A DNA stretch of 64,000 nt from Candidatus Staskawiczbacteria bacterium (GTDB taxonomy: Bacteria; Patescibacteriota; Minisyncoccia; Minisyncoccales; Staskawiczbacteraceae), in NCBI GenBank assembly GCA_041661545.1, contig JBAZUH010000001.1:339877-403876 (forward strand), given 5' to 3'. Position 1 is the first letter of the stretch. Each line of letters begins with the position of its first letter. The notes under the pieces were generated by a model. The model was not told the DNA's origin. It saw only the letters and a program-made list of their open reading frames with translations, and made no database searches. Of this stretch, positions 32,998 through 64,000 are shown one piece after another. Made by a program: the position numbers and the translations under genes.

Positions 32998-33540
32998 TTA
33001 GCCCATTCCTATGCTTTTAACAGCTTTTTCATAAGTAGATAAAACTTTCTTGGCTTCTTCGGCTGATAATTTATAGTCTGGGTTATATACTATAAAATTT
33101 CTAACTTCGTGAGCGTGCAACACATCTGGTAAAATTGGGTCTATTAATCTTCCTGCTTTTTGTATAATTTCATCAAAATTAACACCTTCATAGCCCCTAT
33201 TATCTAAAACTTCAGCTAAAAAATCGTCGGCATCAATTATAGATAATTTATAATCTGATTCAGCCCCAGATTCTATTCTTCTTTTAATTCTATTCCATTG
33301 TTTTTCCATTTCTCTTTGACCATATGCTTGCCAGGAAAAAAACTCTGTCATGTCTTCTAAAAATTTATATTGAAGCCATGAAGAGTTAATCATAAAGTAA
33401 ATTACTAAAATTAAAAATAAAAATGCGAATAAAACAAAAACCATTTTCACAGGAAAAAGCGTATCTTGCAATTGCGAAGACGAAATAAAATAAATAAAAT
33501 CTGTAATTCCTAGTGTGTTATAAAAATCTTCCCATGTCAT
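32998..33540 (-). CDS. Membrane-anchored hypothetical protein
   Basis: 180 aa with one TM. TTTACA-N17-TATAAT lies only 8 nt upstream of the ATG, so the mRNA may be leaderless. Confidence 0.6.
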   Translation of the reverse strand: MTWEDFYNTLGITDFIYFISSSQLQDTLFPVKMVFVLFAFLFLILVIYFMINSSWLQYKFLEDMTEFFSWQAYGQREMEKQWNRIKRRIESGAESDYKLSIIDADDFLAEVLDNRGYEGVNFDEIIQKAGRLIDPILPDVLHAHEVRNFIVYNPDYKLSAEEAKKVLSTYEKAVKSIGMG

Positions 33541-33694
33541 ATTTATTTATTATAATTGTACGTTAATAAAATGTAAAGCCACTCCACCCCGCACCATTTT
33601 CATCCGTGTAATAAATAATACAAAATTATATCTGCGAAGCGCCTACGGCTGTCATTGTGGTAATAAAAAATCACCAGTAAAAATGGTGAAGGGG

Positions 33695-33729
33695 TTTCGC
33701 GACGGCAAAGTAAATTTATTCCGTCGCTC
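33695..33729 (-). promoter_or_regulatory. GAGCG-hairpin-CGAAAC motif, copy 1 (3' boundary of island A)
   Basis: Minus strand: ttttttttGAGCGACGG-aataaatttactttg-CCGTCGCGAAAC. The stem sequence differs from copies 2 and 3 by compensatory changes. Confidence 0.55.
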
Positions 33730-33780
33730 AAAAAAAAGAAGCGGCCGGTGTGGTCGCTATGCAAAACATGAGAAAGGAGT

Positions 33781-34041
33781 TTAGGCCGGAATCGCCCTAA
33801 TTTCAGCAGCAAATTGTTCGCGAATTTTCGCCACGGCTTCATCAACCGACTCCTCTACGACGCCTGGGAGCGTATATCCTTCACAATCAATCCAATACTC
33901 CCTCCACCAAGAGGCGTGAATCTGTTCGACAAGAGAATTTCGCAATCCAATCGGATTTGACTTCAGTTCTATAAAGAAAACCCGCTTGTGCCTAGCAGAT
34001 AATCTCCTGAATCTCTTCAACAACCATTCTGAAAGCATCAT
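33781..34041 (-). CDS. Island A orphan protein A2 (86 aa), paralog of A1
   Basis: KRVFFIELKSNPIGLRNSL aligns with RRVFLESLSNPSELRNVI of A1. G+C is visibly above the flanks. Confidence 0.55.
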   Translation of the reverse strand: MMLSEWLLKRFRRLSARHKRVFFIELKSNPIGLRNSLVEQIHASWWREYWIDCEGYTLPGVVEESVDEAVAKIREQFAAEIRAIPA

Positions 34042-34071
34042 GGCTCATTTTCTCCTTTCATTATTCGGTTA

Positions 34072-34395
34072 TCACACTTTTTTGCCACGGGGCGTCCTAG
34101 CAGCCGCTTTTATAGAGTCTACAATATCAGTATCCGCCATTTCTTTGGCAAATCGTTTTTTAAGGGCCGAGATCATTTCGGTTGCATCTTCATGGTGATC
34201 GACCTCTCTAATACGCAGACCCGTCTCTTTTGGAAATACTCGTGCCCAAATGCTTAAAGACCCTGTAATTACATTCCTAAGCTCGCTGGGATTAGACAAA
34301 GACTCCAAAAATACACGTCGCGACTCACCTTGTAATCCTTCATATTTATTCACTATCCACACTACGAATCTCGGTTCCAGTGGTTCCCTTTTCAT
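34072..34395 (-). CDS. Island A orphan protein A1 (107 aa)
   Basis: Candidate TTTACA-N17-TAAATT promoter upstream on the minus strand, after the atpC terminator. Paralogous to A2. Confidence 0.55.
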   Translation of the reverse strand: MKREPLEPRFVVWIVNKYEGLQGESRRVFLESLSNPSELRNVITGSLSIWARVFPKETGLRIREVDHHEDATEMISALKKRFAKEMADTDIVDSIKAAARTPRGKKV

Positions 34396-34499
34396 GATTT
34401 TTTATTCTATGTTGACAAGTTGCTGTGTAAATATAATTTACAGCTTTTTTATCTTTTTGTAAAGCAAAAACCGCCTTTGGGCGGTTTTAAAATTTGATT

Positions 34500-34742
34500 C
34501 TATTCTTCAATTATAACCCTGACTTCGTTATCTGGTTTTATTTCCAAAAATCCGGAAGTTATTGGGAAAAACTGCTCCTGTTTATCTTTATCAATAATTT
34601 TAATAATTCCAGCAGACAACACGCTAATTAACGGCTCGTGTTTATCTAATACAGTTATTTCACCCATTATTGTTTGACAATTAAAACTAGAGGCCTCGCC
34701 CTGAAATAAGACATTTTTTAATGAGTAAATTGATAATTTCAT
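34500..34742 (-). CDS. atpC: F1 ATP synthase epsilon subunit (short, N-terminal beta-sandwich only)
   Basis: Position after atpD, plus GEITVLDKHEPLISVL and GFLEI. Confidence 0.8.
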   Translation of the reverse strand: MKLSIYSLKNVLFQGEASSFNCQTIMGEITVLDKHEPLISVLSAGIIKIIDKDKQEQFFPITSGFLEIKPDNEVRVIIEE

Positions 34743-34748
34743 AGTTTA

Positions 34749-36214
<1,466 letters not shown>

Positions 36215-37330: not shown

Positions 37331-37338
37331 GTTTTCGT

Positions 37339-37413
37339 GTAACGCGTAATGTGTAACATGTAACGCGTAATTTTTTGTTTTTCTGGTTACCGATTACTGT
37401 TTACCGGTTACTC
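37339..37413. repeat. GTAAC/GTTAC inverted 12-mer array, copy X2
   Basis: gtaacgcgtaat appears twice, 21 nt apart, followed by a T-rich spacer and ggttaccgattac / tttaccggttactc. Confidence 0.65.
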
Positions 37414-37421
37414 AATTTATA

Positions 37422-37450
37422 TTGACAAATTTTTATAATGGGTATATTAT
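37422..37450 (+). promoter_or_regulatory. Promoter of island B (TTGACA-N17-TATTAT)
   Basis: TTGACA at 37422-37427, a 17-nt spacer, and TATTAT at 37445-37450. Confidence 0.55.
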
Positions 37451-37498
37451 TTTGATACGAGCAATTCCGCTCTTTCCCAACTTTAACCGGAGACAATC

Positions 37499-37681
37499 AT
37501 GAAAGTCAAATATGTCTTGGTCGTAAAAAGTCGCGATGGAACATACGTCGTAGACGAACATGAAATATACGGCGATGATGCCATGCAACGCGCCCTATCA
37601 GCTACAACAACTCTCATCCAAAGCTGGGTTATCCGTGACAGAAAGAAATTCGTTTCGCTCACAATCACCTCACACGAATAA
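37499..37681 (+). CDS. Island B orphan protein B1 (60 aa)
   Basis: First ORF after the promoter. G+C is higher than in the atp genes and the strand is opposite to them. Confidence 0.5.
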   Translation: MKVKYVLVVKSRDGTYVVDEHEIYGDDAMQRALSATTTLIQSWVIRDRKKFVSLTITSHE

Positions 37682-37699
37682 ATCAGAAGGACCAAAATC

Positions 37700-37861
37700 A
37701 TGAATCATATCCTTAGTATATTCGCTCTCGTTGTATTTACAATCGGAGCAATCTTTTTAACAGTGAATAACACCTCCATAGCGACGCTTTGCTTCTCAAT
37801 TTCTGCCGCGATCATGAGCTTTGCCTGCTATTTCAAACTTGATGATAGGCCAAAATCATGA
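37700..37861 (+). CDS. Island B small membrane protein B2 (53 aa)
   Basis: MNHILSIFALVVFTIGAIFLTVNNTSIATLCFSISAAIMSFACYFKLDDRPKS has two hydrophobic helices. Its stop overlaps the B3 start (ATGA). Below the track cutoff. Confidence 0.45.
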   Translation: MNHILSIFALVVFTIGAIFLTVNNTSIATLCFSISAAIMSFACYFKLDDRPKS

Positions 37862-38067
37862 AAGAACTAATCGGAAAGCTTGTCAGAATAACCCTTTCCG
37901 CGCCCAGTGGAAATAACATCGTAACCTATGAAGGGTGGGTTTGTTGTGTTGAAGGAAGCATGGTTAAGTTAAAAGGCATGGTGGTCCTCAGTCAAGGCAG
38001 GATGGATTGCAATCCAACATGGTTCAACACTACTTCAAAGGACCTCCGGACCATAGAAGAGCAATAA
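37858..38067 (+). CDS. Island B orphan protein B3 (69 aa), possibly a small beta-barrel (Sm-like pattern)
   Basis: LIGKLVRITLSAPSGNNIVTYEGWVCCVEGSMVKLKG loosely fits an Sm1-type hydrophobic pattern. This is a speculative call. Confidence 0.45.
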   Translation: MKELIGKLVRITLSAPSGNNIVTYEGWVCCVEGSMVKLKGMVVLSQGRMDCNPTWFNTTSKDLRTIEEQ

Positions 38068-38102
38068 TCCCATACATAACCTTGCGATTAATCGCTCGGC
38101 TC

Positions 38103-38130
38103 GCCACGCACGTTCGTGGCTCTTTTTTTT
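38103..38130 (+). terminator. Intrinsic terminator of island B
   Basis: gccacgcacgttcgtggc followed by a T-run. Confidence 0.65.
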
Positions 38131-38167
38131 GAGCGCGAAATTTATTTTTTCTTTAATCGCGCGAAAC
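38131..38167 (+). promoter_or_regulatory. GAGCG-hairpin-CGAAAC motif, copy 2
   Basis: ttttttttGAGCGCG-aaatttattttttctttaat-CGCGCGAAAC. Confidence 0.55.
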
Positions 38168-38200
38168 TCGTCCGAAGCCCTTGGCGAAGGAGGGTTAATC

Positions 38201-49336: not shown

Positions 49337-49446
49337 CTTTTTCATTTTTTTGGGTAAACTCTAGATAAGTACTTTGACAAGAGGAAATCGCTTTGCCGAG
49401 TGGCAAACGCGTATTTTGACTTATTGTCAGGGTAACCCACAAACCA

Positions 49447-50763
49447 ATGACGACCATGAAGAACCAACCGACAACCATGAAAACAAGGCTATGTTTCCTC
49501 AATGTACAACCCCACTGCCTTTTGGTGGGACAACCCGGCGGCTTCGCAACGGCAGAAGACTTCCACCGGTTCGCCGCCGAATGCGGGTTCACGGGCATCA
49601 CCATGCCCACCGGATTCGTGGACATCGATCAGGCCATTTCCAGCTCGTCATACCGGGACGATTTCCAAGCAAACCTGATCGGCTGTGGCCTCACCGACGG
49701 TTTGGTGCGGATGGAAATGCACGTGGACGGCCAAAATGTCTGCGTGGCGCCCTACCGGGTCAAGCGCACGGGGCACTTCGTGAGCCCCGACTTCGCCACC
49801 ACGAATGTGGCGAACATGGAAGGCCTGGCCAAGGACAATTTGTTCAAGGCCATCGATGCATCGGCCGCCTTCGGGTTCAAATACTTGCCCGGTTTCTGCG
49901 GTGGACGCGGGTTCGCTGCCGCCATGGCAAAATGGCCGGCATGGCCCAAGCATCTCCCAGCGTGGGTGATGGGGTTGCTGGCTCTCAAGTGGCAACCAAT
50001 CCTGGAATATGCAGCCGACAGGGGCGTGACCATCACATTCGAATTCGGTCACCCCGAAAACGACCTGCTAACCGGCGCCAACTTCGTGCTCTTCTACAGC
50101 ATGCTGTCGGACAAAGCCAAACTTGGTGTTGGCATCAACGCAGATGCCTCGCACTTCCTCAACATCGGCATCAACCCGATGCCTCACCTGGACAAGGCCG
50201 CCGAAACCGGTTGCAAATTTACTAACCATTTCAAGTGGGGCGCTTCGGTGGACCGGGGGGATGGCACTGCCTCCACTTACGGCGGGTGGACCAACTGGTC
50301 GCAATCGTCCACGACGTTCTTCACCTTCGCCACTGTGGGGCCCGACTGGCTCGCCCGCGAGTTCTACGAGTTCCTCCTGGCGATGACCAGGAAACAGGGC
50401 GACGAATGCTTCGACGTTGTTTATGAAGGCGAAGATGCCACCATCATCAACCCCAAGCAAGCCATGCAGATTGGTGCCGCCAACTGTCGTGCAGCCATCA
50501 CCGGCGATCGCTTTATCAAGCTGAACGGCGTTGTGGACGAGGAAGATTTCGTTATGACCACTCCGATGGAGGTGAACGATGTCGCACTCTATTTCCCCGG
50601 CGGACGTTTGCTGGAACTTGAATCCTGGGCCGGCGGACCCTTTGACCAGGCCTTTGATAGCCCGCTCAAGCCCTATGATCTGCTCGAAATGGACTGCCAT
50701 GAAGTCACGGCTTGCCGGCAGTTGCTAGCTGACACCGGCCACGAAGCCGAAGCAGAGGCGTGA
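49447..50763 (+). CDS. Island D: xylose-isomerase-like TIM-barrel (sugar phosphate isomerase/epimerase superfamily) protein, 438 aa, strongly G+C-rich
   Basis: ITFEFGHPENDLL and GINADASHF resemble the metal-ligand strands of the AP-endonuclease-2/xylose-isomerase-like fold. A hand count gives 39/60 G+C at 49561-49620 versus 16/60 at 49141-49200. Confidence 0.6.
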   Translation: MTTMKNQPTTMKTRLCFLNVQPHCLLVGQPGGFATAEDFHRFAAECGFTGITMPTGFVDIDQAISSSSYRDDFQANLIGCGLTDGLVRMEMHVDGQNVCVAPYRVKRTGHFVSPDFATTNVANMEGLAKDNLFKAIDASAAFGFKYLPGFCGGRGFAAAMAKWPAWPKHLPAWVMGLLALKWQPILEYAADRGVTITFEFGHPENDLLTGANFVLFYSMLSDKAKLGVGINADASHFLNIGINPMPHLDKAAETGCKFTNHFKWGASVDRGDGTASTYGGWTNWSQSSTTFFTFATVGPDWLAREFYEFLLAMTRKQGDECFDVVYEGEDATIINPKQAMQIGAANCRAAITGDRFIKLNGVVDEEDFVMTTPMEVNDVALYFPGGRLLELESWAGGPFDQAFDSPLKPYDLLEMDCHEVTACRQLLADTGHEAEAEA

Positions 50764-50789
50764 CCACGCTCGCTGCTCAACAAACCCAA

Positions 50790-50825
50790 GCCTGGGGAAC
50801 ACGATGTTCCCTGGGCACTTTTTTT
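50790..50825 (+). terminator. Strong intrinsic terminator of island D
   Basis: gcctggggaaca-cga-tgttccctgggc forms a 12-bp stem including G-U pairs, followed by ac and ttttttt. Confidence 0.75.
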
Positions 50826-52262: not shown

Positions 52263-52431
52263 AATTTCAACTATGAACTGACAACTAATAGTTACAAGCT
52301 CAAGTGTTGGGAGGAACTTATCGCGTTCCTCCATATTTTGTGGCAAGCCACACGTCAGGATTAGAACCTGAAGATATTCGAGAATATGGTCTCAATACCT
52401 ATGCCGGCTTTTTCAAAAGCCGTAAAACGAA

Positions 52432-52953
52432 TTACCTGGTGGCAAAAACCTTGCCCTTGCCCACCCCAAGCATAAAGATTTTGCTATCGTCGGAGAACTC
52501 GTACCCGCAGGAGAACGTAGTCCCTGTAGGGTTCGGAACAAATTTCCAGCTCCACGCCGAAAACTGGCGCCGACAAATTGGCAAAGGATTTAGCCCCAGG
52601 CGATAGCATTCCCTCATCCAAATAGCACTAGGAAGCACCGGGAATGTTGTCATCCACTCCTTGCTATTCGGGAATCCTATCGGTACCCACTCACCGAGGT
52701 CGGAAGGATTGACGATGGCGACAACCGGTTCGATCCCCCTCCAACTGTTGCCTTCCGAGACAAGTTCAAACGGCCCTGACCCTAATGGACCAGATTCTCG
52801 TCTCAGGGTAAATCCGTGCTCAAGACAGCCTCCTTTACCGAGATACTCGTCAGCGATGTCCACAAGACCAATGAGGTATAGGTCAAGTTCCATCTGCCAG
52901 GAGGTGTAATAGCGGGGAACAGAGCCACCGATGTGATAGAGTAGCGTTTTCAT
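52432..52953 (-). CDS. Island E orphan protein (173 aa from ATG 52953; the track ORF starts at GTG 52998)
   Basis: MKTLLYHIGGSVPRYYTSWQMELDLYLIG... No family is recognised. G+C is elevated. Confidence 0.55.
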   Translation of the reverse strand: MKTLLYHIGGSVPRYYTSWQMELDLYLIGLVDIADEYLGKGGCLEHGFTLRRESGPLGSGPFELVSEGNSWRGIEPVVAIVNPSDLGEWVPIGFPNSKEWMTTFPVLPSAIWMRECYRLGLNPLPICRRQFSAWSWKFVPNPTGTTFSCGYEFSDDSKIFMLGVGKGKVFATR

Positions 52954-53152
52954 GTTTTCAGTCTTTCTGCACTCTCTAACGGGGAGTTTTCCGCTCACTT
53001 CTGTTGTCTTTTTTAAACAGTTGGTAAAGCCTAGTAAGTGGCTCCCTGAATTCGTAGTGAACGCAGGTTACTGTTCCCTGCTCTAGCAAGGCGCAAAAAC
53101 CTGCATTCACTAACTATGTTTTCAAATTACTATCAATTTATCCTATATATTT

Positions 53153-54391: not shown

Positions 54392-54476
54392 ATTATAAAA
54401 AAACTAGACCTTTCGCGGCCCAAGCTCTAATAAACTTGTTTATTGTATATATTAATTATATCAAATTTATTTCACT

Positions 54477-54507
54477 TTGTCAATATGTTCTTCTACCTTG
54501 ATATAAT
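54477..54507 (+). promoter_or_regulatory. Promoter of island F (TTGTCA with extended -10 TGaTATAAT)
   Basis: TTGTCA at 54477-54482 and TGATATAAT at 54499-54507. The spacer is 19 nt, so function would rest on the extended -10. Confidence 0.45.
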
Positions 54508-54619
54508 TATTAATCAATGATAGAAATAATTTAGTATAGTAGGAACAGGATTCCTTGCTATTGAAATTTCGCCGAAAGCGAAACAACTTTGTTGCCAAAC
54601 TACCAACTAATCGAACACC

Positions 54620-54805
54620 ATGAAAACCACAGAAATACCGCCGCCACAATTGGGTATCCCCGTTTCTAAAGCCGCAGAGAAAAAAATGAAAGTAACAATG
54701 CGTCGATGGACGCGTACCAATGTACGAGAAATGGGAAATGCATTCGACCCAAAAAAAACGGCTTCGGTAAGAGCAACTCCGCAAGAGCTAATTAGCTTCG
54801 AATAG
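54620..54805 (+). CDS. Island F orphan basic protein (61 aa)
   Basis: MKTTEIPPPQLGIPVSKAAEKKMKVTMRRWTRTNVREMG... Has a CA-rich leader, a terminator immediately downstream, and elevated G+C. Confidence 0.45.
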   Translation: MKTTEIPPPQLGIPVSKAAEKKMKVTMRRWTRTNVREMGNAFDPKKTASVRATPQELISFE

Positions 54806-54829
54806 AGCTAAAAAGCTGCAACAGTCTTT

Positions 54830-54861
54830 AACCGCAGGTTTCACCTCGCGGTTCTTTTTTT
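54830..54861 (+). terminator. Intrinsic terminator of island F
   Basis: aaccgcaggtttcacctcgcggtt followed by a T-run. Confidence 0.65.
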
Positions 54862-54896
54862 GAGCGCGTAATATAACTTCATTAAACGCGCGAAAC
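54862..54896 (+). promoter_or_regulatory. GAGCG-hairpin-CGAAAC motif, copy 3
   Basis: tttttttGAGCGCG-taatataacttcattaaa-CGCGCGAAAC. Confidence 0.55.
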
Positions 54897-54948
54897 CTCG
54901 CCGAAGCGGGATGCCCTTTGGACCGCGAAGGCGGGTGCATGTAGTGAT

Positions 54949-54977
54949 TTGACATTTTGGGAATTTTAGGATATAAT
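54949..54977 (+). promoter_or_regulatory. Perfect consensus promoter upstream of the DEAD-box helicase gene
   Basis: TTGACA at 54949-54954, a 17-nt spacer, and TATAAT at 54972-54977. Confidence 0.65.
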
Positions 54978-55150
54978 AAATATACTCTGAGTTGTGAAAT
55001 GGATTAAAAACGATTTATTTAGTTTTTGAGCGAAACGAAGCAAAAATTTTGAGGCATACACGTCGTGTTCTGTCGATAAATTTTTGCAAAGTCGCAGCCG
55101 AAAACGAAACGTAAAGAGTTAAATCTATTTCATAATTCAGAGTATTCAAA

Positions 55151-56410
55151 ATGATAAACGAAAAAATACAAACTCCCCTATCTAACACAGCCGAAATTAC
55201 TTTTGGTGGTCTTGGTATAGCTCCAAAAATTTTAGATACTATTATAAGGTTGGGCTTTAAAACTCCAACCTCTATTCAGCACAAAGCAATTCCAGTTGCG
55301 GTTGAAGGAAAAGATATAATTGGGATAGCTCAAACCGGCACAGGAAAAACTTTGGCTTTTGGAATTCCGCTAATTCAACAAATTCTAAAAAATAACGGCA
55401 AAGGATTAATTATTTTGCCCACTCGTGAGCTAGCTATACAAGTTAACGAAACTATACAAAAAATAGGAAGAGATTTTGGCATAAAAACTGTTGTATTAAT
55501 TGGAGGAACCCATATTAGACCACAAATGAGAGAGCTTTCTTTTAACCCTCATATTGTAATTGGAACTCCAGGAAGAATTAATGACCATATTCAGCAAAGA
55601 ACTTTGCGATTAGATAGAGTTTCGGTTTTAGTTTTGGATGAGGCCGATAGAATGTTTGATATGGGATTTGCTCCTCAAATATCAAAAATATTGCAGTCTG
55701 TGCCAAAAGAAAGGCAAACAATGTTATTTTCTGCAACTATGCCAGATCAAATAGTAAAAATTGCCACTTTTCATATGAAACTACCTGTTAGAGTAGAAAT
55801 AGCAAGAGCAGGAACTACTGCAGAAAACATAGAACATGAATTGTTTGTTGTTAGAAAAGAACAAAAATTTGCATTATTAAAAAAATTATTAGAAGAATAT
55901 AAAGGAAGTGTTTTAGTGTTTTTAAGGGTTAAACATAATGCAAGAAAAATTTGCGACCATTTGCGTGTAGCCAGAATAACTGCAGCTGAAATACACTCAA
56001 ACAGATCTTTAAATCAAAGAAAAGAGGCTTTAGAGGGTTTTAAAACCGGTAGATTTAGAGTTTTAGTGGCAACAGACATTGCTTCAAGAGGCATAGATGT
56101 AAAAAATATAGAATTAGTAATTAACTATGATTTGCCAGAAAATGCAGAAGATTATGTGCATAGAATTGGCAGAACCGGCAGGGCAGGCATGTCGGGAAAA
56201 GCAATATCATTTGCAACGCCAGATCAAGGTTCTGTTGTTAGAGAAATTGAAATGTTAACTAGAATTAATTTACCAATTTCAAAATTGCCCGATGATTTAC
56301 CAGTTGTTGCAAGTCAACCTTCAACTACTTTTAATAAACCTGGTCGCTCACAACAAAGAAATAGACCATCGGGTAGATTTAACCATGGCAAACGAAGATA
56401 TCAAAGATAA
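55151..56410 (+). CDS. DEAD-box ATP-dependent RNA helicase
   Basis: Q-motif region, AQTGTGKT, VLDEAD, SAT, and HRIGRTGRAG. Confidence 0.9.
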   Translation: MINEKIQTPLSNTAEITFGGLGIAPKILDTIIRLGFKTPTSIQHKAIPVAVEGKDIIGIAQTGTGKTLAFGIPLIQQILKNNGKGLIILPTRELAIQVNETIQKIGRDFGIKTVVLIGGTHIRPQMRELSFNPHIVIGTPGRINDHIQQRTLRLDRVSVLVLDEADRMFDMGFAPQISKILQSVPKERQTMLFSATMPDQIVKIATFHMKLPVRVEIARAGTTAENIEHELFVVRKEQKFALLKKLLEEYKGSVLVFLRVKHNARKICDHLRVARITAAEIHSNRSLNQRKEALEGFKTGRFRVLVATDIASRGIDVKNIELVINYDLPENAEDYVHRIGRTGRAGMSGKAISFATPDQGSVVREIEMLTRINLPISKLPDDLPVVASQPSTTFNKPGRSQQRNRPSGRFNHGKRRYQR

Positions 56411-59775: not shown

Positions 59776-59994
59776 ATGTTCTACACCCCTCTTTATCGTT
59801 GTAACCAGTGCGGTTCAATTCAGTTGCGCACTCCCATAGAAGCGGAAAATGTTGTGCAGCTTGAGGAGAAATTGCCATCAATTCCGCGAATCATCATCCA
59901 TCGCTGTACATGGATTGGTTGCACTACTAAACCCTCAGGAACTTTGGGAGTTTGCGAACTCATTGCATTCCAACCCGAAGACCTCAAAGACTAA
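59776..59994 (+). CDS. Island G protein G1 (72 aa, Cys-containing, possible zinc ribbon)
   Basis: CNQCGS...HRCTWIGC. TTGACA lies at 59686-59691 upstream, and the leader is CA-rich (aaccaaccacctaccaatATG). Confidence 0.5.
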   Translation: MFYTPLYRCNQCGSIQLRTPIEAENVVQLEEKLPSIPRIIIHRCTWIGCTTKPSGTLGVCELIAFQPEDLKD

Positions 59995-60020
59995 CTACCA
60001 ACCCCGTCAAACCAACCGAA

Positions 60021-60296
60021 ATGAAAATAATTATTCTTTCGCTGATATTGAATTCTGTCAGCGCAGTTTTCGCGCTGACCCATGGCTACATTGCCTGGGC
60101 AGTGTGGTTTGAATTATTCACCATTTTATCGGCGGTGGTTCTGATAAACGCAATCTTTGCGCGTTATTCTAAGAAAGCTCGACCCCGCATTACGTACCTA
60201 AAATCATGTGCTTTGGCTCTGTATTCGTTCTTGGGATCTCTGAGCCTAATTGCCTTCTGGGCCATGATCGCATGGCGAGCATGGCACGCGATGTAG
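60021..60296 (+). CDS. Island G membrane protein G2 (91 aa, three TM helices)
   Basis: MKIIILSLILNSVSAVFALTHGYIAWAVWFELFTILSAVVLINAIF... This is an internal ATG of the track ORF 59952..60296, preceded by caaaccaaccgaa. Confidence 0.5.
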   Translation: MKIIILSLILNSVSAVFALTHGYIAWAVWFELFTILSAVVLINAIFARYSKKARPRITYLKSCALALYSFLGSLSLIAFWAMIAWRAWHAM

Positions 60297-60315
60297 AACC
60301 AAACCAACTAAACCG

Positions 60316-60450
60316 ATGAACTTCAAATTCTGGGTCATCATTGGCGTCTGTGCGATTATTGCATGGACATGCGTCGCGTGGTACAGCAACCAAGACCCCC
60401 GGCGCAAGCAACTCAATCCTCCGGAAACCGAAAACACGACCACGCCATGA
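60316..60450 (+). CDS. Island G micro-membrane protein G3 (44 aa)
   Basis: MNFKFWVIIGVCAIIAWTCVAWYSNQDPRRKQLNPPETENTTTP. Its stop overlaps the G4 start (ATGA). Below the track cutoff. Confidence 0.4.
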   Translation: MNFKFWVIIGVCAIIAWTCVAWYSNQDPRRKQLNPPETENTTTP

Positions 60451-60944
60451 GACCAACGAAAACCATGCATTGCAATACATGCGGAGAAACATTTCAAATA
60501 AGGGAGGGCGAAAGTTGCATGTGTCCCTTCTGCCTTGGAGTCAGAAGGCAAAAAACGTTCATAACTGAACCGACCAAAACCTTGGAAACCACGATTAAAA
60601 TTCTGTTTGTCATTTTTGCTATTGTTGCTGCCATTGCTACTGGCGTCGTCGAAGGTTCCAGAGAAAGATCGTCAACGGCATACCAGTTTAAATGGGTGAA
60701 TGATGATAAAGGATGGGAAATCTCCGACCCTGACAGTCTTCCCCAGTCAATCACCAGTCCTTATGGATTCCTCCATGGGTGGGTAACTTATGGAAGATCG
60801 CACACCCTAGTAATCCCGCACTCATGGTTCGGCGACAAGGAGGTCCGCGTCCATTTCTGGGACAACACTCCCAAACAAGTGCAAGCGGAAATCGTGGACG
60901 AAATACCTGAATGGTTGGAAACCGAAACCACGACCACGCCATGA
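60447..60944 (+). CDS. Island G protein G4 (165 aa: zinc ribbon + TM + extracytoplasmic domain)
   Basis: CNTCGETF...CPFC, then the TM segment ILFVIFAIVAAIATGVV. Ends ETETTTTP on the same 28-nt junction sequence as G3. Confidence 0.5.
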   Translation: MRPTKTMHCNTCGETFQIREGESCMCPFCLGVRRQKTFITEPTKTLETTIKILFVIFAIVAAIATGVVEGSRERSSTAYQFKWVNDDKGWEISDPDSLPQSITSPYGFLHGWVTYGRSHTLVIPHSWFGDKEVRVHFWDNTPKQVQAEIVDEIPEWLETETTTTP

Positions 60945-61120
60945 AAAAGCTACCAGATACCGACAAAACGTTAGCCAAATTCTTCCTAGGATTATCCGAC
61001 GAACAAATCGGGCAATTCGTGCGCAGAATTCTTACCGGGAAAAAGCCGAAGGCCGAAAAAATACGGCCACGCAAAAAAGGCTCGAGAAAACCCAAAACCA
61101 AAAGAGGCAAACCCCTCTAA
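60941..61120 (+). CDS. Island G basic protein G5 (59 aa)
   Basis: MKKLPDTDKTLAKFFLGLSDEQIGQFVRRILTGKKPKAEKIRPRKKGSRKPKTKRGKPL. ATGA-coupled to G4. Confidence 0.45.
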   Translation: MKKLPDTDKTLAKFFLGLSDEQIGQFVRRILTGKKPKAEKIRPRKKGSRKPKTKRGKPL

Positions 61121-63299: not shown

Positions 63300-63405
63300 G
63301 CTTGTCCTGAGCGAAGTCGAAGGATTGACAATTTTGCAAAAAGTCATAAGATATAATTACTCAAACAAAATAGCTTTTTGACAACCAACCAACGGAAACA
63401 ACACC

Positions 63406-63981
63406 ATGAGCATGAACCTAAAAAGCATTACTTATGTAAGCGTGATTGCAGTTGGTATAACCAGCATGTTTAGCAAGAAGGACTCAACCATAGCGATTAT
63501 AGGCTTAGTGTTGGCAATTATTGGTCTACTCATCCTTCTATGGGATATTCTTAGATCCAAGCCAAATAGTAACTCCAAGCAAATAACCTATGGCCAGTTT
63601 CTTGATACCATGGGCGATGTGGCGGAGGACTTTCCAAGCGCAAACGCATTTTTCCAAATGCTATATATCACCATTACTGGCTATCAATGGGAAATCCGCA
63701 GTGCGACACCCGTAGGTACAGAACACGTCAAACATTTCGTTGACATCATGCACCGAGATTTTTGGGAATTGATAAGCGAAGGAGATGCCGTAGGAGCTCT
63801 GCAATCGGAAGCGGGCGCATTCTTATGCGCTGTTCGCAATAAGTGCGTTGAGCTGGGCATTGATGTCGGTGGCATCAATTTTAACCCCCCGCTATCACCC
63901 AGAGAAACGCCTCTCACAAGTGGCAATAAAGATCTAACATTGGCCGACATATCGGTAGTTAACGACCACCCTGGAGACTGA
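63406..63981 (+). CDS. Island H membrane-anchored orphan protein (191 aa)
   Basis: Two N-terminal TM helices and a G+C-richer soluble domain. TTGACA lies at 63325-63330 and the leader is CA-rich (caaccaaccaacggaaacaacaccATG). Confidence 0.55.
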   Translation: MSMNLKSITYVSVIAVGITSMFSKKDSTIAIIGLVLAIIGLLILLWDILRSKPNSNSKQITYGQFLDTMGDVAEDFPSANAFFQMLYITITGYQWEIRSATPVGTEHVKHFVDIMHRDFWELISEGDAVGALQSEAGAFLCAVRNKCVELGIDVGGINFNPPLSPRETPLTSGNKDLTLADISVVNDHPGD

Positions 63982-64000
63982 ACTTTAAGCTTTACCCAGA

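What the first reader, a model, noticed from the sequence alone, without database searches (positions are those of the whole stretch)
33695..34499. Island A: tandem paralogous orphan genes appended to the atpC end of the ATP synthase cluster
Directly downstream of atpC and its terminator (aaaaccgcccaaaggcggttttt), on the same strand, are two G+C-richer ORFs:
- A1, 34072-34395, 107 aa.
- A2, 33781-34041, 86 aa.

They are recognisably paralogous. RRVFLESLSNPSELRNVI aligns with KRVFFIELKSNPIGLRNSL, and EMISALKKRFAKEM with EAVAKIREQFAAEI. A candidate TTTACA-N17-TAAATT promoter precedes A1. The 3' end carries copy 1 of the GAGCG-hairpin-CGAAAC motif.

Both ends of the atpG-D-C block are therefore flanked by islands (A and B).
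Basis: partly seen in the sequence, partly recalled or inferred. Interest (0 to 1): 0.6.

Follow-up and report, generated by a model that had tools for sequence, protein, structure and literature searches.

The report
Paralogous small-protein cassette beside atpC
Two real, related genes for small helical proteins of unknown function sit as a separate, strain-variable add-on between the ATP synthase operon and a conserved 152-base structured DNA/RNA element in a tiny candidate-phyla-radiation (CPR) bacterium; the genes are fairly ordinary, and the neighbouring element is the more unusual part.

Summary
A1 (34072-34395, 107 aa) and A2 (33781-34041, 86 aa) lie on the atpC strand, after the atpC terminator. 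They are G+C-richer than the window's genes (44-46% against 33%). They are significantly paralogous (BLASTP E 2e-6; 0 of 5000 shuffles reach the score).

They are not strict orphans. A profile search of 1.84 billion proteins found about ten more members (84-112 aa), all unannotated. One is a 45%-identical A1 ortholog at the same site in a related MAG.

With the family alignment, AlphaFold gives A2 a confident helical bundle (pLDDT 92). It has no match in the PDB or BFVD, and the family has no match in Pfam, NCBIfam, PADLOC or PHROGs.

The pair is an autonomous cassette with its own promoter and a terminator hairpin. A third related genome has atpC, terminator and the next gene with no A1 or A2. 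Other family members sit alone in unrelated contexts. So the pair is an accessory cassette, not an ATP synthase component. Its function is only inferred: a non-enzymatic binding protein.

The GAGCG-hairpin-CGAAAC motif is the 5' end of a conserved 152-nt structured element (33586-33737). It occurs in 29 metagenome loci, is absent from Rfam, and is often immediately preceded by variable, G+C-rich gene cassettes.

The parts
34466..34488 (-). Intrinsic terminator of atpC (AAAACCGCCCAAAGGCGGTTTTT). This is the upstream boundary of the cassette.
   Evidence: Sequence, coordinates. The same terminator-then-promoter layout is seen in L181 and L203.
34404..34463 (-). Promoter region of the cassette, with two sigma-70-like candidates. 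TTTACA-N17-TAAATT is at 34463-34435. TTTACA-N16-TAGAAT is at 34431-34404; it ends 8 nt before the A1 ATG, which would give a near-leaderless mRNA.
   Evidence: Consensus scan. L181 has TTGACA-N17-TAAAAT at the equivalent position. No transcription data are available.
34072..34395 (-). A1: CDS of 107 aa (NCBI WC711_02080). It belongs to the new small helical-protein family, in the A1-type branch. It has a basic C-terminal tail, and pI is 9.6.
   Evidence: The ortholog P0004 is 45.5% identical and lies at the same site in L181.
34052..34057 (-). Shine-Dalgarno AAGGAG, 10 nt before the A2 start.
   Evidence: Sequence, coordinates.
33781..34041 (-). A2: CDS of 86 aa (NCBI WC711_02075). It is the typical-length family member. 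AlphaFold2 gives a helical bundle with pLDDT 91.8 and pTM 0.80.
   Evidence: The closest relative is P0003 (43% identity, same length, same AIPA C-terminus).
33740..33758 (-). Interrupted G+C-rich hairpin (AGCGACCACACCGGCCGCT). Together with the following T-run it forms the cassette's terminator-like 3' end.
   Evidence: Fold, coordinates. Equivalent variable hairpins abut the T-run in most of the metagenome loci.
33586..33737 (-). Conserved 152-nt structured element, made of these parts:
- T8 run (33730-33737).
- Long-range stem P1 (5' arm within 33678-33694, 3' arm within 33586-33602).
- Small hairpin around CCGTAGGCGCTTCGC (33634-33648).

It is resident and is not part of the cassette.
   Evidence: The covariance model scores it at 159 bits, E 1e-39. 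There is no Rfam match.
33549..33577 (-). Promoter TTTACA-N17-TATAAT of the next gene, a 180-aa membrane-anchored protein at 32998-33540. This is the downstream boundary.
   Evidence: 11 of 12 matches. The same element-promoter-gene order is seen in L203.

Best explanation
A1 and A2 are two real protein-coding genes, ancient tandem paralogs. They belong to a previously unannotated family of small (about 85-110 aa), soluble proteins with no conserved His, Cys or Ser in the family alignment; the one member modelled confidently (A2) is an all-alpha bundle.

Together they form one autonomous transcription unit: own promoter, A1 (probably leaderless or lacking a Shine-Dalgarno site), A2 (with AAGGAG), then a hairpin plus T-run.

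The unit occupies a variable intergenic slot. The slot lies between the atpC terminator and a resident, conserved 152-nt structured element that precedes the promoter of the next gene.

It is an accessory cassette, not a part of the ATP synthase operon.

Shown: coding status, paralogy, family membership, the confident fold prediction, the cassette boundaries, and presence or absence of the cassette among related genomes.

Inferred only: the proteins act without catalysis, by binding a partner. The partner is most likely a protein, as for immunity, antitoxin or anti-factor-like modulators. The two diverged copies would then have different partner specificities.
For: Coding status and paralogy:
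- BLASTP E 2e-6. No shuffle out of 5000 reaches the observed score.
- A profile of the pair finds 9 further proteins of 84-112 aa among 1.84 billion, plus P0012.
- The alignment has conserved F/W at the N-terminus, P36, W50 and a C-terminal FAxE motif.
- AlphaFold2 with 12 sequences gives pLDDT 91.8 and pTM 0.80, with 5-6 helices.

Synteny:
- L181 has atpD-atpC-[A1 ortholog]-180 aa-DivIC.
- A1 is 45.5% identical to that ortholog. This is the same range as DivIC (44.8%) and below AtpC (65%) and AtpD (93%).

Accessory nature:
- L203 has atpC-terminator-TTTACA-element-promoter-180 aa gene with no A1 or A2. L181 lacks A2.
- Other members are solitary promoter-to-terminator units next to unrelated genes: Fic/RhuM, BacA, HrcA.
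- G+C is 44-46% against a gene mean of 33%.

Non-enzymatic binder:
- No conserved catalytic-type residues.
- Most members are acidic, pI 4.4-6.9.
- No hit in Pfam, NCBIfam, PADLOC or PHROGs.
Against: - No direct evidence of expression or of any binding partner.
- There is no conserved neighbour gene, so guilt by association gives nothing.
- No toxin-like gene lies beside the pair, which weakens an immunity or antitoxin reading.
- A1 itself is basic (pI 9.6), unlike most members.
- The A1 model built with only two sequences is mediocre (pLDDT 68).
- With three roughly equidistant genomes, loss in L203 and gain in the window/L181 lineage cannot be told apart. L203 even keeps a TTTACA at the junction.
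Confidence: 0.6

Rival explanations
1. A1 and A2 are lineage-specific accessory subunits or regulators of the F-type ATP synthase. They would act, for example, as small helical inhibitors in the manner of the alphaproteobacterial zeta subunit or IF1, and would be kept next to atpC for co-regulation.
For: - They are on the same strand and directly downstream of atpC.
- An A1 ortholog holds the same position in a related MAG.
- The proteins are small and helical, like known F1 inhibitors (the comparison with inhibitors rests on general knowledge).
Against: - A terminator and a separate promoter lie between atpC and A1.
- L203 has a complete atp operon without A1/A2.
- Five other family contexts (L183, L184, L188, L189, L192) contain no atp gene.
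- Foldseek against the whole PDB returns nothing at E<=0.001. By my recollection, not checked here, the PDB includes zeta and IF1 structures.
Confidence: 0.08
2. The pair is cargo of a cassette-capture or mobile system in which the 152-nt element is the attachment site, or the mobile 3' end. On this reading A1/A2 arrived by site-specific insertion just 5' of the element's T-run.
For: - All three window cassettes (A, B, C) end at the T-run of a full or partial element copy.
- In the metagenome loci the gene just upstream is often much G+C-richer than its locus.
- Orthologous sites carry the element with no cassette (L203, L199, L200, L207) or with different cassettes (L201 against L216).
Against: - No recombinase or transposase was seen next to any copy. 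Only long ORFs were listed, and neighbours were not scanned against protein-family libraries.
- No target-site duplication or shared 5' boundary motif.
- L181 carries the A1 cassette without the element.
- No family member elsewhere is next to an element.
- No copies in viral contigs.
- The association could instead reflect selection for a shared U-tract or insulator.
Confidence: 0.15
3. A1 and A2 are RNA-binding proteins that act on the adjacent structured element.
For: They lie next to the element. A1 has a basic tail.
Against: - No element copy was found in family loci L181-L192.
- No family member was found among ORFs of the 29 element loci.
- Most members are acidic.
Confidence: 0.04
4. 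The ORFs are chance or antisense artefacts in a G+C-richer non-coding stretch.
For: - No annotated domain.
- A1 lacks a Shine-Dalgarno sequence.
- Word-indexed homology searches found only self hits.
Against: - There is a family of about 12 full-length homologs with conserved columns.
- A syntenic ortholog exists.
- The fold prediction is confident.
- The A1/A2 similarity is significant at the protein level only.
- Both NCBI and JGI call the genes.
Confidence: 0.02

Closest known systems
Strain-variable genomic islets: small accessory gene cassettes in intergenic hot spots between conserved operons
   Same: - It is an autonomous promoter-to-terminator unit with deviant G+C.
- It is present, absent or different at the same site in related genomes.
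   Different: - It is very small (about 0.7 kb).
- No integrase, tRNA gene or direct repeats are at the borders.
- It abuts a conserved structured element that has no described counterpart.
Integron gene cassettes with attC sites
   Same: - Short cassettes of one to three small ORFs end in a hairpin of variable sequence, next to a conserved site.
- Cassette content varies between strains.
   Different: - The cassettes are dispersed, not in an array.
- Each has its own promoter.
- The hairpin flanks do not fit RYYYAAC / GTTRRRY (checked by eye on the sequences).
- No integrase was seen nearby.
- The conserved site lies 3' of the cassette, not 5'.
REP/BIME, ERIC, Correia/NEMIS, RUP and BOX: small structured intergenic repeats of bacteria (comparison for the 152-nt element)
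   Same: - It is intergenic, about 100-150 nt, hairpin-rich and bounded by an imperfect inverted repeat (P1).
- It is found after terminators or inside operon spacers, in either orientation relative to host genes.
   Different: - Only one full copy is present in 64 kb.
- Orthologous copies in different genomes keep conserved blocks separated by free-varying segments, which points to selection rather than recent transposition.
- G.U pairs favour one strand.
- There is no sequence similarity to any Rfam family.
Small helical immunity or antitoxin-like proteins, for example colicin immunity proteins of about 85 aa (functional analogy for A1/A2, recalled from general knowledge)
   Same: They have similar size and all-alpha bundles, are often acidic, evolve fast and are often tandemly duplicated.
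   Different: - There is no sequence or fold match to any solved structure.
- No adjacent toxin gene was recognised among the listed neighbour ORFs.
Staphylococcal protein A B/Z domain (three-helix bundle)
   Same: There is a local 27-29-residue resemblance (L-x-EEQRNAFIQSLKDDPS against L-x-x-x-KR-x-FL-x-x-LK-x-x-P) across a helix-Pro-helix.
   Different: - The per-domain score is about 9.5 bits, independent E about 11-15.
- The low whole-chain E-values come from repeated domains in fusion constructs.
- hhalign gives a probability of 46%.
- Foldseek gives no match.
- I treat it as a convergent motif.

Membership tests
New A1/A2 small helical-protein family (defined here by alignments A4 and A5) | Full-length match to the family profile, with conserved F/W (N-terminal helix), P about 36, W about 50 and a C-terminal FAxE(L/M). 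| tested here: met
   A1 scores 105.9 bits and A2 90.2 bits against the profile, though both are among the sequences the profile was built from. The independent support is the profile of A1+A2 alone, which retrieved P0003-P0011. Invariant and near-invariant columns are listed.
New A1/A2 small helical-protein family | Compact all-alpha bundle of about 85 residues. | tested here: met
   A2: pLDDT 91.8, pTM 0.80, helices 3-12, 16-28, 30-43, 45-54, 62-76 and 78-83. A1: the same helix order but low confidence.
F-type ATP synthase subunits or inhibitors (epsilon, zeta/DUF1476, IF1, AtpI) | Sequence or fold similarity to a known subunit or inhibitor family. | tested here: not met
   No Pfam or NCBIfam hit. 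No PDB fold match.
F-type ATP synthase subunits or inhibitors | Conserved co-occurrence with, and co-transcription in, the atp operon. | tested here: not met
   There is a terminator and a separate promoter. The genes are absent from the complete operon of L203. Other members are not near atp genes.
Integron cassette / attC | attC with inverse core RYYYAAC and core GTTRRRY flanking an imperfect palindrome. | tested here: not met
   The flanks are T-run/GAGCG and CGCGAAAC. The reverse strand reads GTTTCGC, which does not fit GTTRRRY (sequences, read directly).
Integron cassette / attC | Promoterless cassettes in an array next to intI and attI. | tested here: not met
   Each cassette has its own sigma-70-like promoter and stands alone. 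An intI gene was not searched for across the whole window.
Toxin-antitoxin pair | Two non-homologous partners, a toxin and an antitoxin, in one operon. | tested here: not met
   A1 and A2 are homologous to each other. Other genomes carry a single copy.
Protein A B-domain (three-helix bundle) | Significant domain-level sequence match and a three-helix fold. | tested here: not met
   Single-domain independent E is about 11-15. hhalign probability is 46%. The model has 5-6 helices and no Foldseek hit.
Any Rfam RNA family (for the 152-nt element) | Covariance-model score at or above the gathering threshold. | tested here: not met
   Only tRNAs pass in the window. Nothing relevant appears at E<=10 on the window copy or on the L203 copy.
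Hammerhead ribozyme (considered for GAGCG-hairpin-CGAAAC) | CUGAUGA core 5' of stem II and GAAA 3' of it. | tested here: not met
   The 5' side is UUUUUUGA rather than CUGAUGA in all copies. There is no Rfam hammerhead hit.
Group IIC intron (inserts after intrinsic terminators) | 5' GUGYG, domains I-VI including the domain V catalytic hairpin, length of at least 400 nt. | tested here: not met
   The element starts with GAGCG and is 152 nt. There is no Rfam intron hit. The intron features are recalled from general knowledge.
MITE / REP-like repeat (for the element) | Many near-identical copies per genome, terminal inverted repeats and target-site duplication. | tested here: inconclusive
   An inverted-repeat-like P1 is present. 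Only 1 full and 2 partial copies occur in 64 kb. No target-site duplication was seen. The rest of the 738-kb genome could not be read.

The most novel reading that the evidence does not exclude
Promoter-to-hairpin cassettes of foreign, G+C-rich small genes, A1/A2 among them, would be inserted precisely 5' of the element's T-run, which then completes their terminator. A recombinase encoded elsewhere in the genome would recognise the hairpin with its conserved flanks.
Probability: 0.12. Interest if true: 0.8.

Novelty: new variant of a known kind. Interest (0 to 1): 0.4.

Why it matters
CPR bacteria have tiny genomes, and most of their lineage-specific genes are uncharacterised. This locus adds three things.

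First, it yields a small protein family with a confidently predicted fold, a clear duplication history and defined transcription signals. That makes it a tractable target for expression and interaction tests.

Second, it shows that the spacers of a highly conserved operon (after atpC, and between atpA and atpG) are exchange points for small accessory genes in these reduced genomes.

Third, and more important, a conserved, apparently structured 152-nt element without an Rfam counterpart marks such points in many related genomes. If it proves to be an attachment site or a functional RNA, it would bear on how episymbiotic bacteria with minimal genomes gain and insulate new genes.

Tried and rejected
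1. A loose motif scan (TTTTTGAGCG-N18-30-CGCGAAAC) of genome contigs and viral contigs gave 118 and 62 loci. All were chance matches, mostly histidine-kinase coding sequence and one phage family.
2. Word-indexed homology searches with A1 and A2 alone returned only self hits. Only the exhaustive profile search found relatives.
3. Neighbouring small ORFs of other family members were tested as hidden paralogs or as a conserved partner. Neither was found.
4. A1 and A2 were compared with the small ORFs of islands B and C. No similarity was found.
5. The protein A Z-domain lead was rejected as a local motif.
6. Hammerhead, group IIC intron, attC, CRISPR-repeat, SRP RNA and riboswitch readings of the hairpin or element were rejected on sequence features and on the absence of Rfam hits.
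7. A second long-range pairing, CAGCCGA with UCGGCUG, that I saw by eye is not kept across sequences. RNAalifold did not predict it, so I dropped it.
8. A -10-like TATAAT in the H2 loop was considered as an internal promoter. No conserved -35 precedes it except in L203, and the idea would not explain the covariation in the H2 stem. It is left open.
9. No close A1 or A2 relatives and no element copies were found in IMG/VR. The family alignment was too divergent for the search for related loci.

Full report
**Source.** The window comes from a 737,971-bp contig of a Candidatus Staskawiczbacteria MAG (CPR, Parcubacteria). NCBI annotates A2 as WC711_02075 and A1 as WC711_02080, both 'hypothetical protein'. 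The same atpC-A1-A2 arrangement is also assembled from run SRR18595301.

**Checking the observation.**
- On the minus strand the order is atpD (34832-36202), atpC (34500-34742; PF02823, E 3.6e-18), the terminator AAAACCGCCCAAAGGCGGTTTTT (34466-34488), A1 (34072-34395, 107 aa) and A2 (33781-34041, 86 aa).
- G+C rises to 43-46% across 33600-34350, against about 30-33% on either side.
- A1 is 43.8% and A2 45.6% G+C, against 33.0 +/- 6.3% for 47 long ORFs of the window. Third-position G+C is also raised.
It also finds a slightly better TTTACA-N16-TAGAAT (34431-34404), which ends 8 nt before the A1 start codon.
- A1 has no Shine-Dalgarno sequence, so it may be translated from a near-leaderless mRNA. 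A2 has AAGGAG 10 nt upstream of its start.

**Paralogy.**
- BLASTP aligns 77 residues at 27% identity, E 2e-6.
- The Smith-Waterman score is 71. For 5000 shuffles of A2 the mean is 25.5, the sd 4.7 and the maximum 55.
- The small ORFs of islands B and C are unrelated to A1 and A2.
- tblastn finds no further copy in the window.

**Not orphans.**
- Word-indexed searches of 5.8 billion proteins found only self hits.
- An exhaustive HMMER search of 1.84 billion cluster representatives, using the A1+A2 profile, found nine more proteins of 84-112 aa, with E from 5e-13 to 6e-4. A twelfth member came from a profile search with the eleven-sequence alignment.
- The alignment is full length. It has an N-terminal (E)F-K-x-W motif, a proline near position 36, a tryptophan near position 50 and a C-terminal A-L-K-E-x-F-A-x-E-L motif.
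- P0004 is the A1 ortholog: 45.5% identical, with a conserved N-terminal extension. This supports the 107-aa start over JGI's 93-aa GTG start.
- P0003 is A2-like: 43% identical, 86 aa, with the same AIPA C-terminus.
- The A1 and A2 types therefore diverged before these lineages split.
- No member hits Pfam, NCBIfam, PADLOC or PHROGs in a consistent way.

**Structure.**
- With the 12-sequence alignment, AlphaFold2 models A2 as a compact bundle of five to six helices, with pLDDT 91.8 and pTM 0.80.
- A1 modelled with only two sequences shows the same helix order at pLDDT 68.
- A profile search of PDB sequences picks up the protein A Z-domain over 27 residues. Each domain scores only about 9.5 bits. 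The low whole-chain E-values come from tandem domains in engineered fusions. hhalign gives a probability of 46%. I regard this as a convergent helix-Pro-helix motif.
- The family has no conserved His, Cys or Ser. Most members are acidic (pI 4.4-6.9), although A1 is basic (pI 9.6).

**Genomic context elsewhere.**
- L181 (GCA_964998225.1) has atpD-atpC-terminator-TTGACA/TAAAAT promoter-A1 ortholog-terminator-180-aa gene-DivIC. It has no A2.
- Identities between the window and L181 are AtpD 93%, p180 73%, AtpC 65%, A1 45.5% and DivIC 45%. A1 therefore evolves fast, but no faster than the most divergent resident gene.
- L203, about equally distant (AtpD 92%), has a complete atp operon. After atpC and its terminator it has only TTTACA, the 152-nt element, a promoter and the 180-aa gene. 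A1 and A2 are absent.
- The other family members are single genes, most with their own TTGACA-type promoter, most with a Shine-Dalgarno site, and with a hairpin-plus-T-run 3' end. They lie beside Fic/RhuM/DUF5674 genes (L184), BacA (L189) or HrcA-GrpE (L183), or on short contigs.
- Their small neighbours are neither family members nor related to one another.
- There is therefore no conserved partner and no general link with ATP synthase.

**The GAGCG motif.**
- The three window copies share the layout [variable G+C-rich hairpin]-T7/8-GAGCG-stem-A/T-rich loop-stem-CGCGAAAC. Their stems differ in a compensatory way.
- A tighter pattern found 29 metagenome loci, from groundwater and peat and with G+C of 34-52%. 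These show that the motif opens a conserved element of about 152 nt.
- The element's parts, in order:
  - T-run;
  - hairpin H2;
  - GAAAC-CCCUUCACCAAUUUUAC;
  - about 20 variable nt;
  - GACAGCCGAAGGCGCUUCGCC;
  - about 25 variable nt;
  - CUGAAAUUGGUGUGGGGU.
- RNAalifold predicts three helices: H2, a 16-bp long-range stem P1 between the CCCUUCACCAAUUU and AAAUUGGUGUGGGG blocks, and a small hairpin CGAAG-GCG-CUUCG.
- Of all cells, 96.6% are paired. Five pairs show double changes. None of 500 shuffles reaches the observed values, and the slid controls pair at about 45%. Frequent U.G pairs favour the strand shown.
- A covariance model scores the window copy at 33586-33737(-) at 159 bits. Copies B (38123-38195) and C (54854-54912) are partial, with E about 1e-6. 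No copy is found in the family loci L181-L192.
- Rfam 15 has no match. IMG/VR has no copy.

**The element and cassettes.**
- The element follows co-oriented genes of many unrelated kinds: two tandem CsrA genes, zinc-ribbon-like small proteins, and genes of 200-396 aa.
- These upstream genes are often far G+C-richer than their locus, for example 0.53 against 0.41 and 0.57 against 0.41.
- At orthologous positions some genomes have the element with nothing in front of the T-run. Examples are L203 after atpC, and L199, L200 and L207 between the atpG start and the atpA end, antisense to the operon. Others have different cassettes at the same position (L201 against L216 beside fusA).
- The T-run therefore belongs to the element. 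Variable cassettes end with their own hairpin right against it.
- In the window this holds for A (A1 and A2), B (three overlapping ORFs of 60, 53 and 69 aa at 37499-38067) and C (a 61-aa ORF at 54620-54805).
It also shifts the emphasis: the motif marks a resident element next to which cassettes accumulate, not the end of the island.
- Whether the element is an attachment site, an insulator or U-tract donor, an RNA gene or an old MITE cannot be decided with the data at hand.

**Verdict.**
- A1 and A2 are genuine, anciently duplicated genes of a small, unannotated helical-protein family. They are carried on an autonomous accessory cassette in a variable slot downstream of atpC.
- A role in ATP synthase is unlikely.
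- The most likely mode of action is non-catalytic binding of a partner protein. This is an inference from size, fold, composition and evolutionary behaviour, and I give it about 0.3 on its own.
- As a pair of hypothetical genes in a CPR genome, the finding is of modest interest. The adjoining 152-nt element and its association with variable cassettes is the part most worth following up.

Noticed in passing
window 33586-33737(-); L193-L221: A conserved 152-nt structured element with no Rfam match. Its parts are a T-run, the GAGCG hairpin, a long-range stem and a small hairpin. It was found in 29 metagenome loci. It often lies directly after variable G+C-rich gene cassettes, and sometimes stands alone at the same orthologous site.
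   Followed up: partly
window 37420-38200(+): Island B lies in the atpA-atpG spacer, antisense to the atp operon. It has a TTGACA/TATAAT promoter, three overlapping small ORFs (60, 53 and 69 aa; the middle one looks like a two-helix membrane peptide), a terminator and a partial element copy. Relatives have at this site only the element (L199, L200, L207), a 77-aa ORF (L214) or an 89-aa Cys-rich ORF (L203 2774-3043).
   Followed up: partly
window 54440-54960(+) and 55023-55110(+): Island C has a promoter, a 61-aa ORF (54620-54805), a terminator and a partial element copy. A second, scrambled TTTTTGAGCG...CGAAAC stretch lies in the long 5' leader of the DEAD-box helicase gene (55151-56410).
   Followed up: no
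window 34745-34830 and 37335-37415: Clusters of GTAAC/GTTAC-containing short repeats, for example TGTAACGCGTAAT twice at a 21-nt spacing. They lie in the atpD-atpC spacer and just upstream of atpG. Their function is unknown.
   Followed up: no
window 49400-50800, 52300-53000, 59950-60950, 63400-64000: Further G+C-rich stretches (58%, 52%, 47-49% and 45%, in a 34% genome). The first holds a 438-aa ORF with a weak match to the xylose-isomerase-like TIM barrel. The stretch at 52.3-53.0 kb has only implausible overlapping ORFs and no Rfam hit, so it might be an unrecognised RNA or foreign DNA.
   Followed up: partly
L181 2296-2450: In the related MAG the element is replaced by a different run of hairpins between the A1 ortholog and the 180-aa gene. 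This includes two long near-perfect hairpins, of about 17 bp (GCAACTATACCCCTTAT...) and about 14 bp (AACGGCTCAACAGC...), as read by eye.
   Followed up: no
L195 461-1073 (and L215): Two tandem paralogous CsrA-like genes (82 and 64 aa; assigned by eye from the translated sequences, not scanned against Pfam), G+C-rich relative to the contig, lie directly upstream of an element copy.
   Followed up: no
window 34353-34395: JGI calls A1 from an internal GTG (93 aa). This cuts off the conserved N-terminal F/W motif. NCBI's 107-aa call fits the family alignment.
   Followed up: yes
window 33665-33689(-): In the window copy, and in L198 and L208, the 5' arm of P1 can instead pair with an adjacent UGGUGA followed by a U-run. 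This gives a terminator-like hairpin, and so possible alternative structures in a minority of copies.
   Followed up: no
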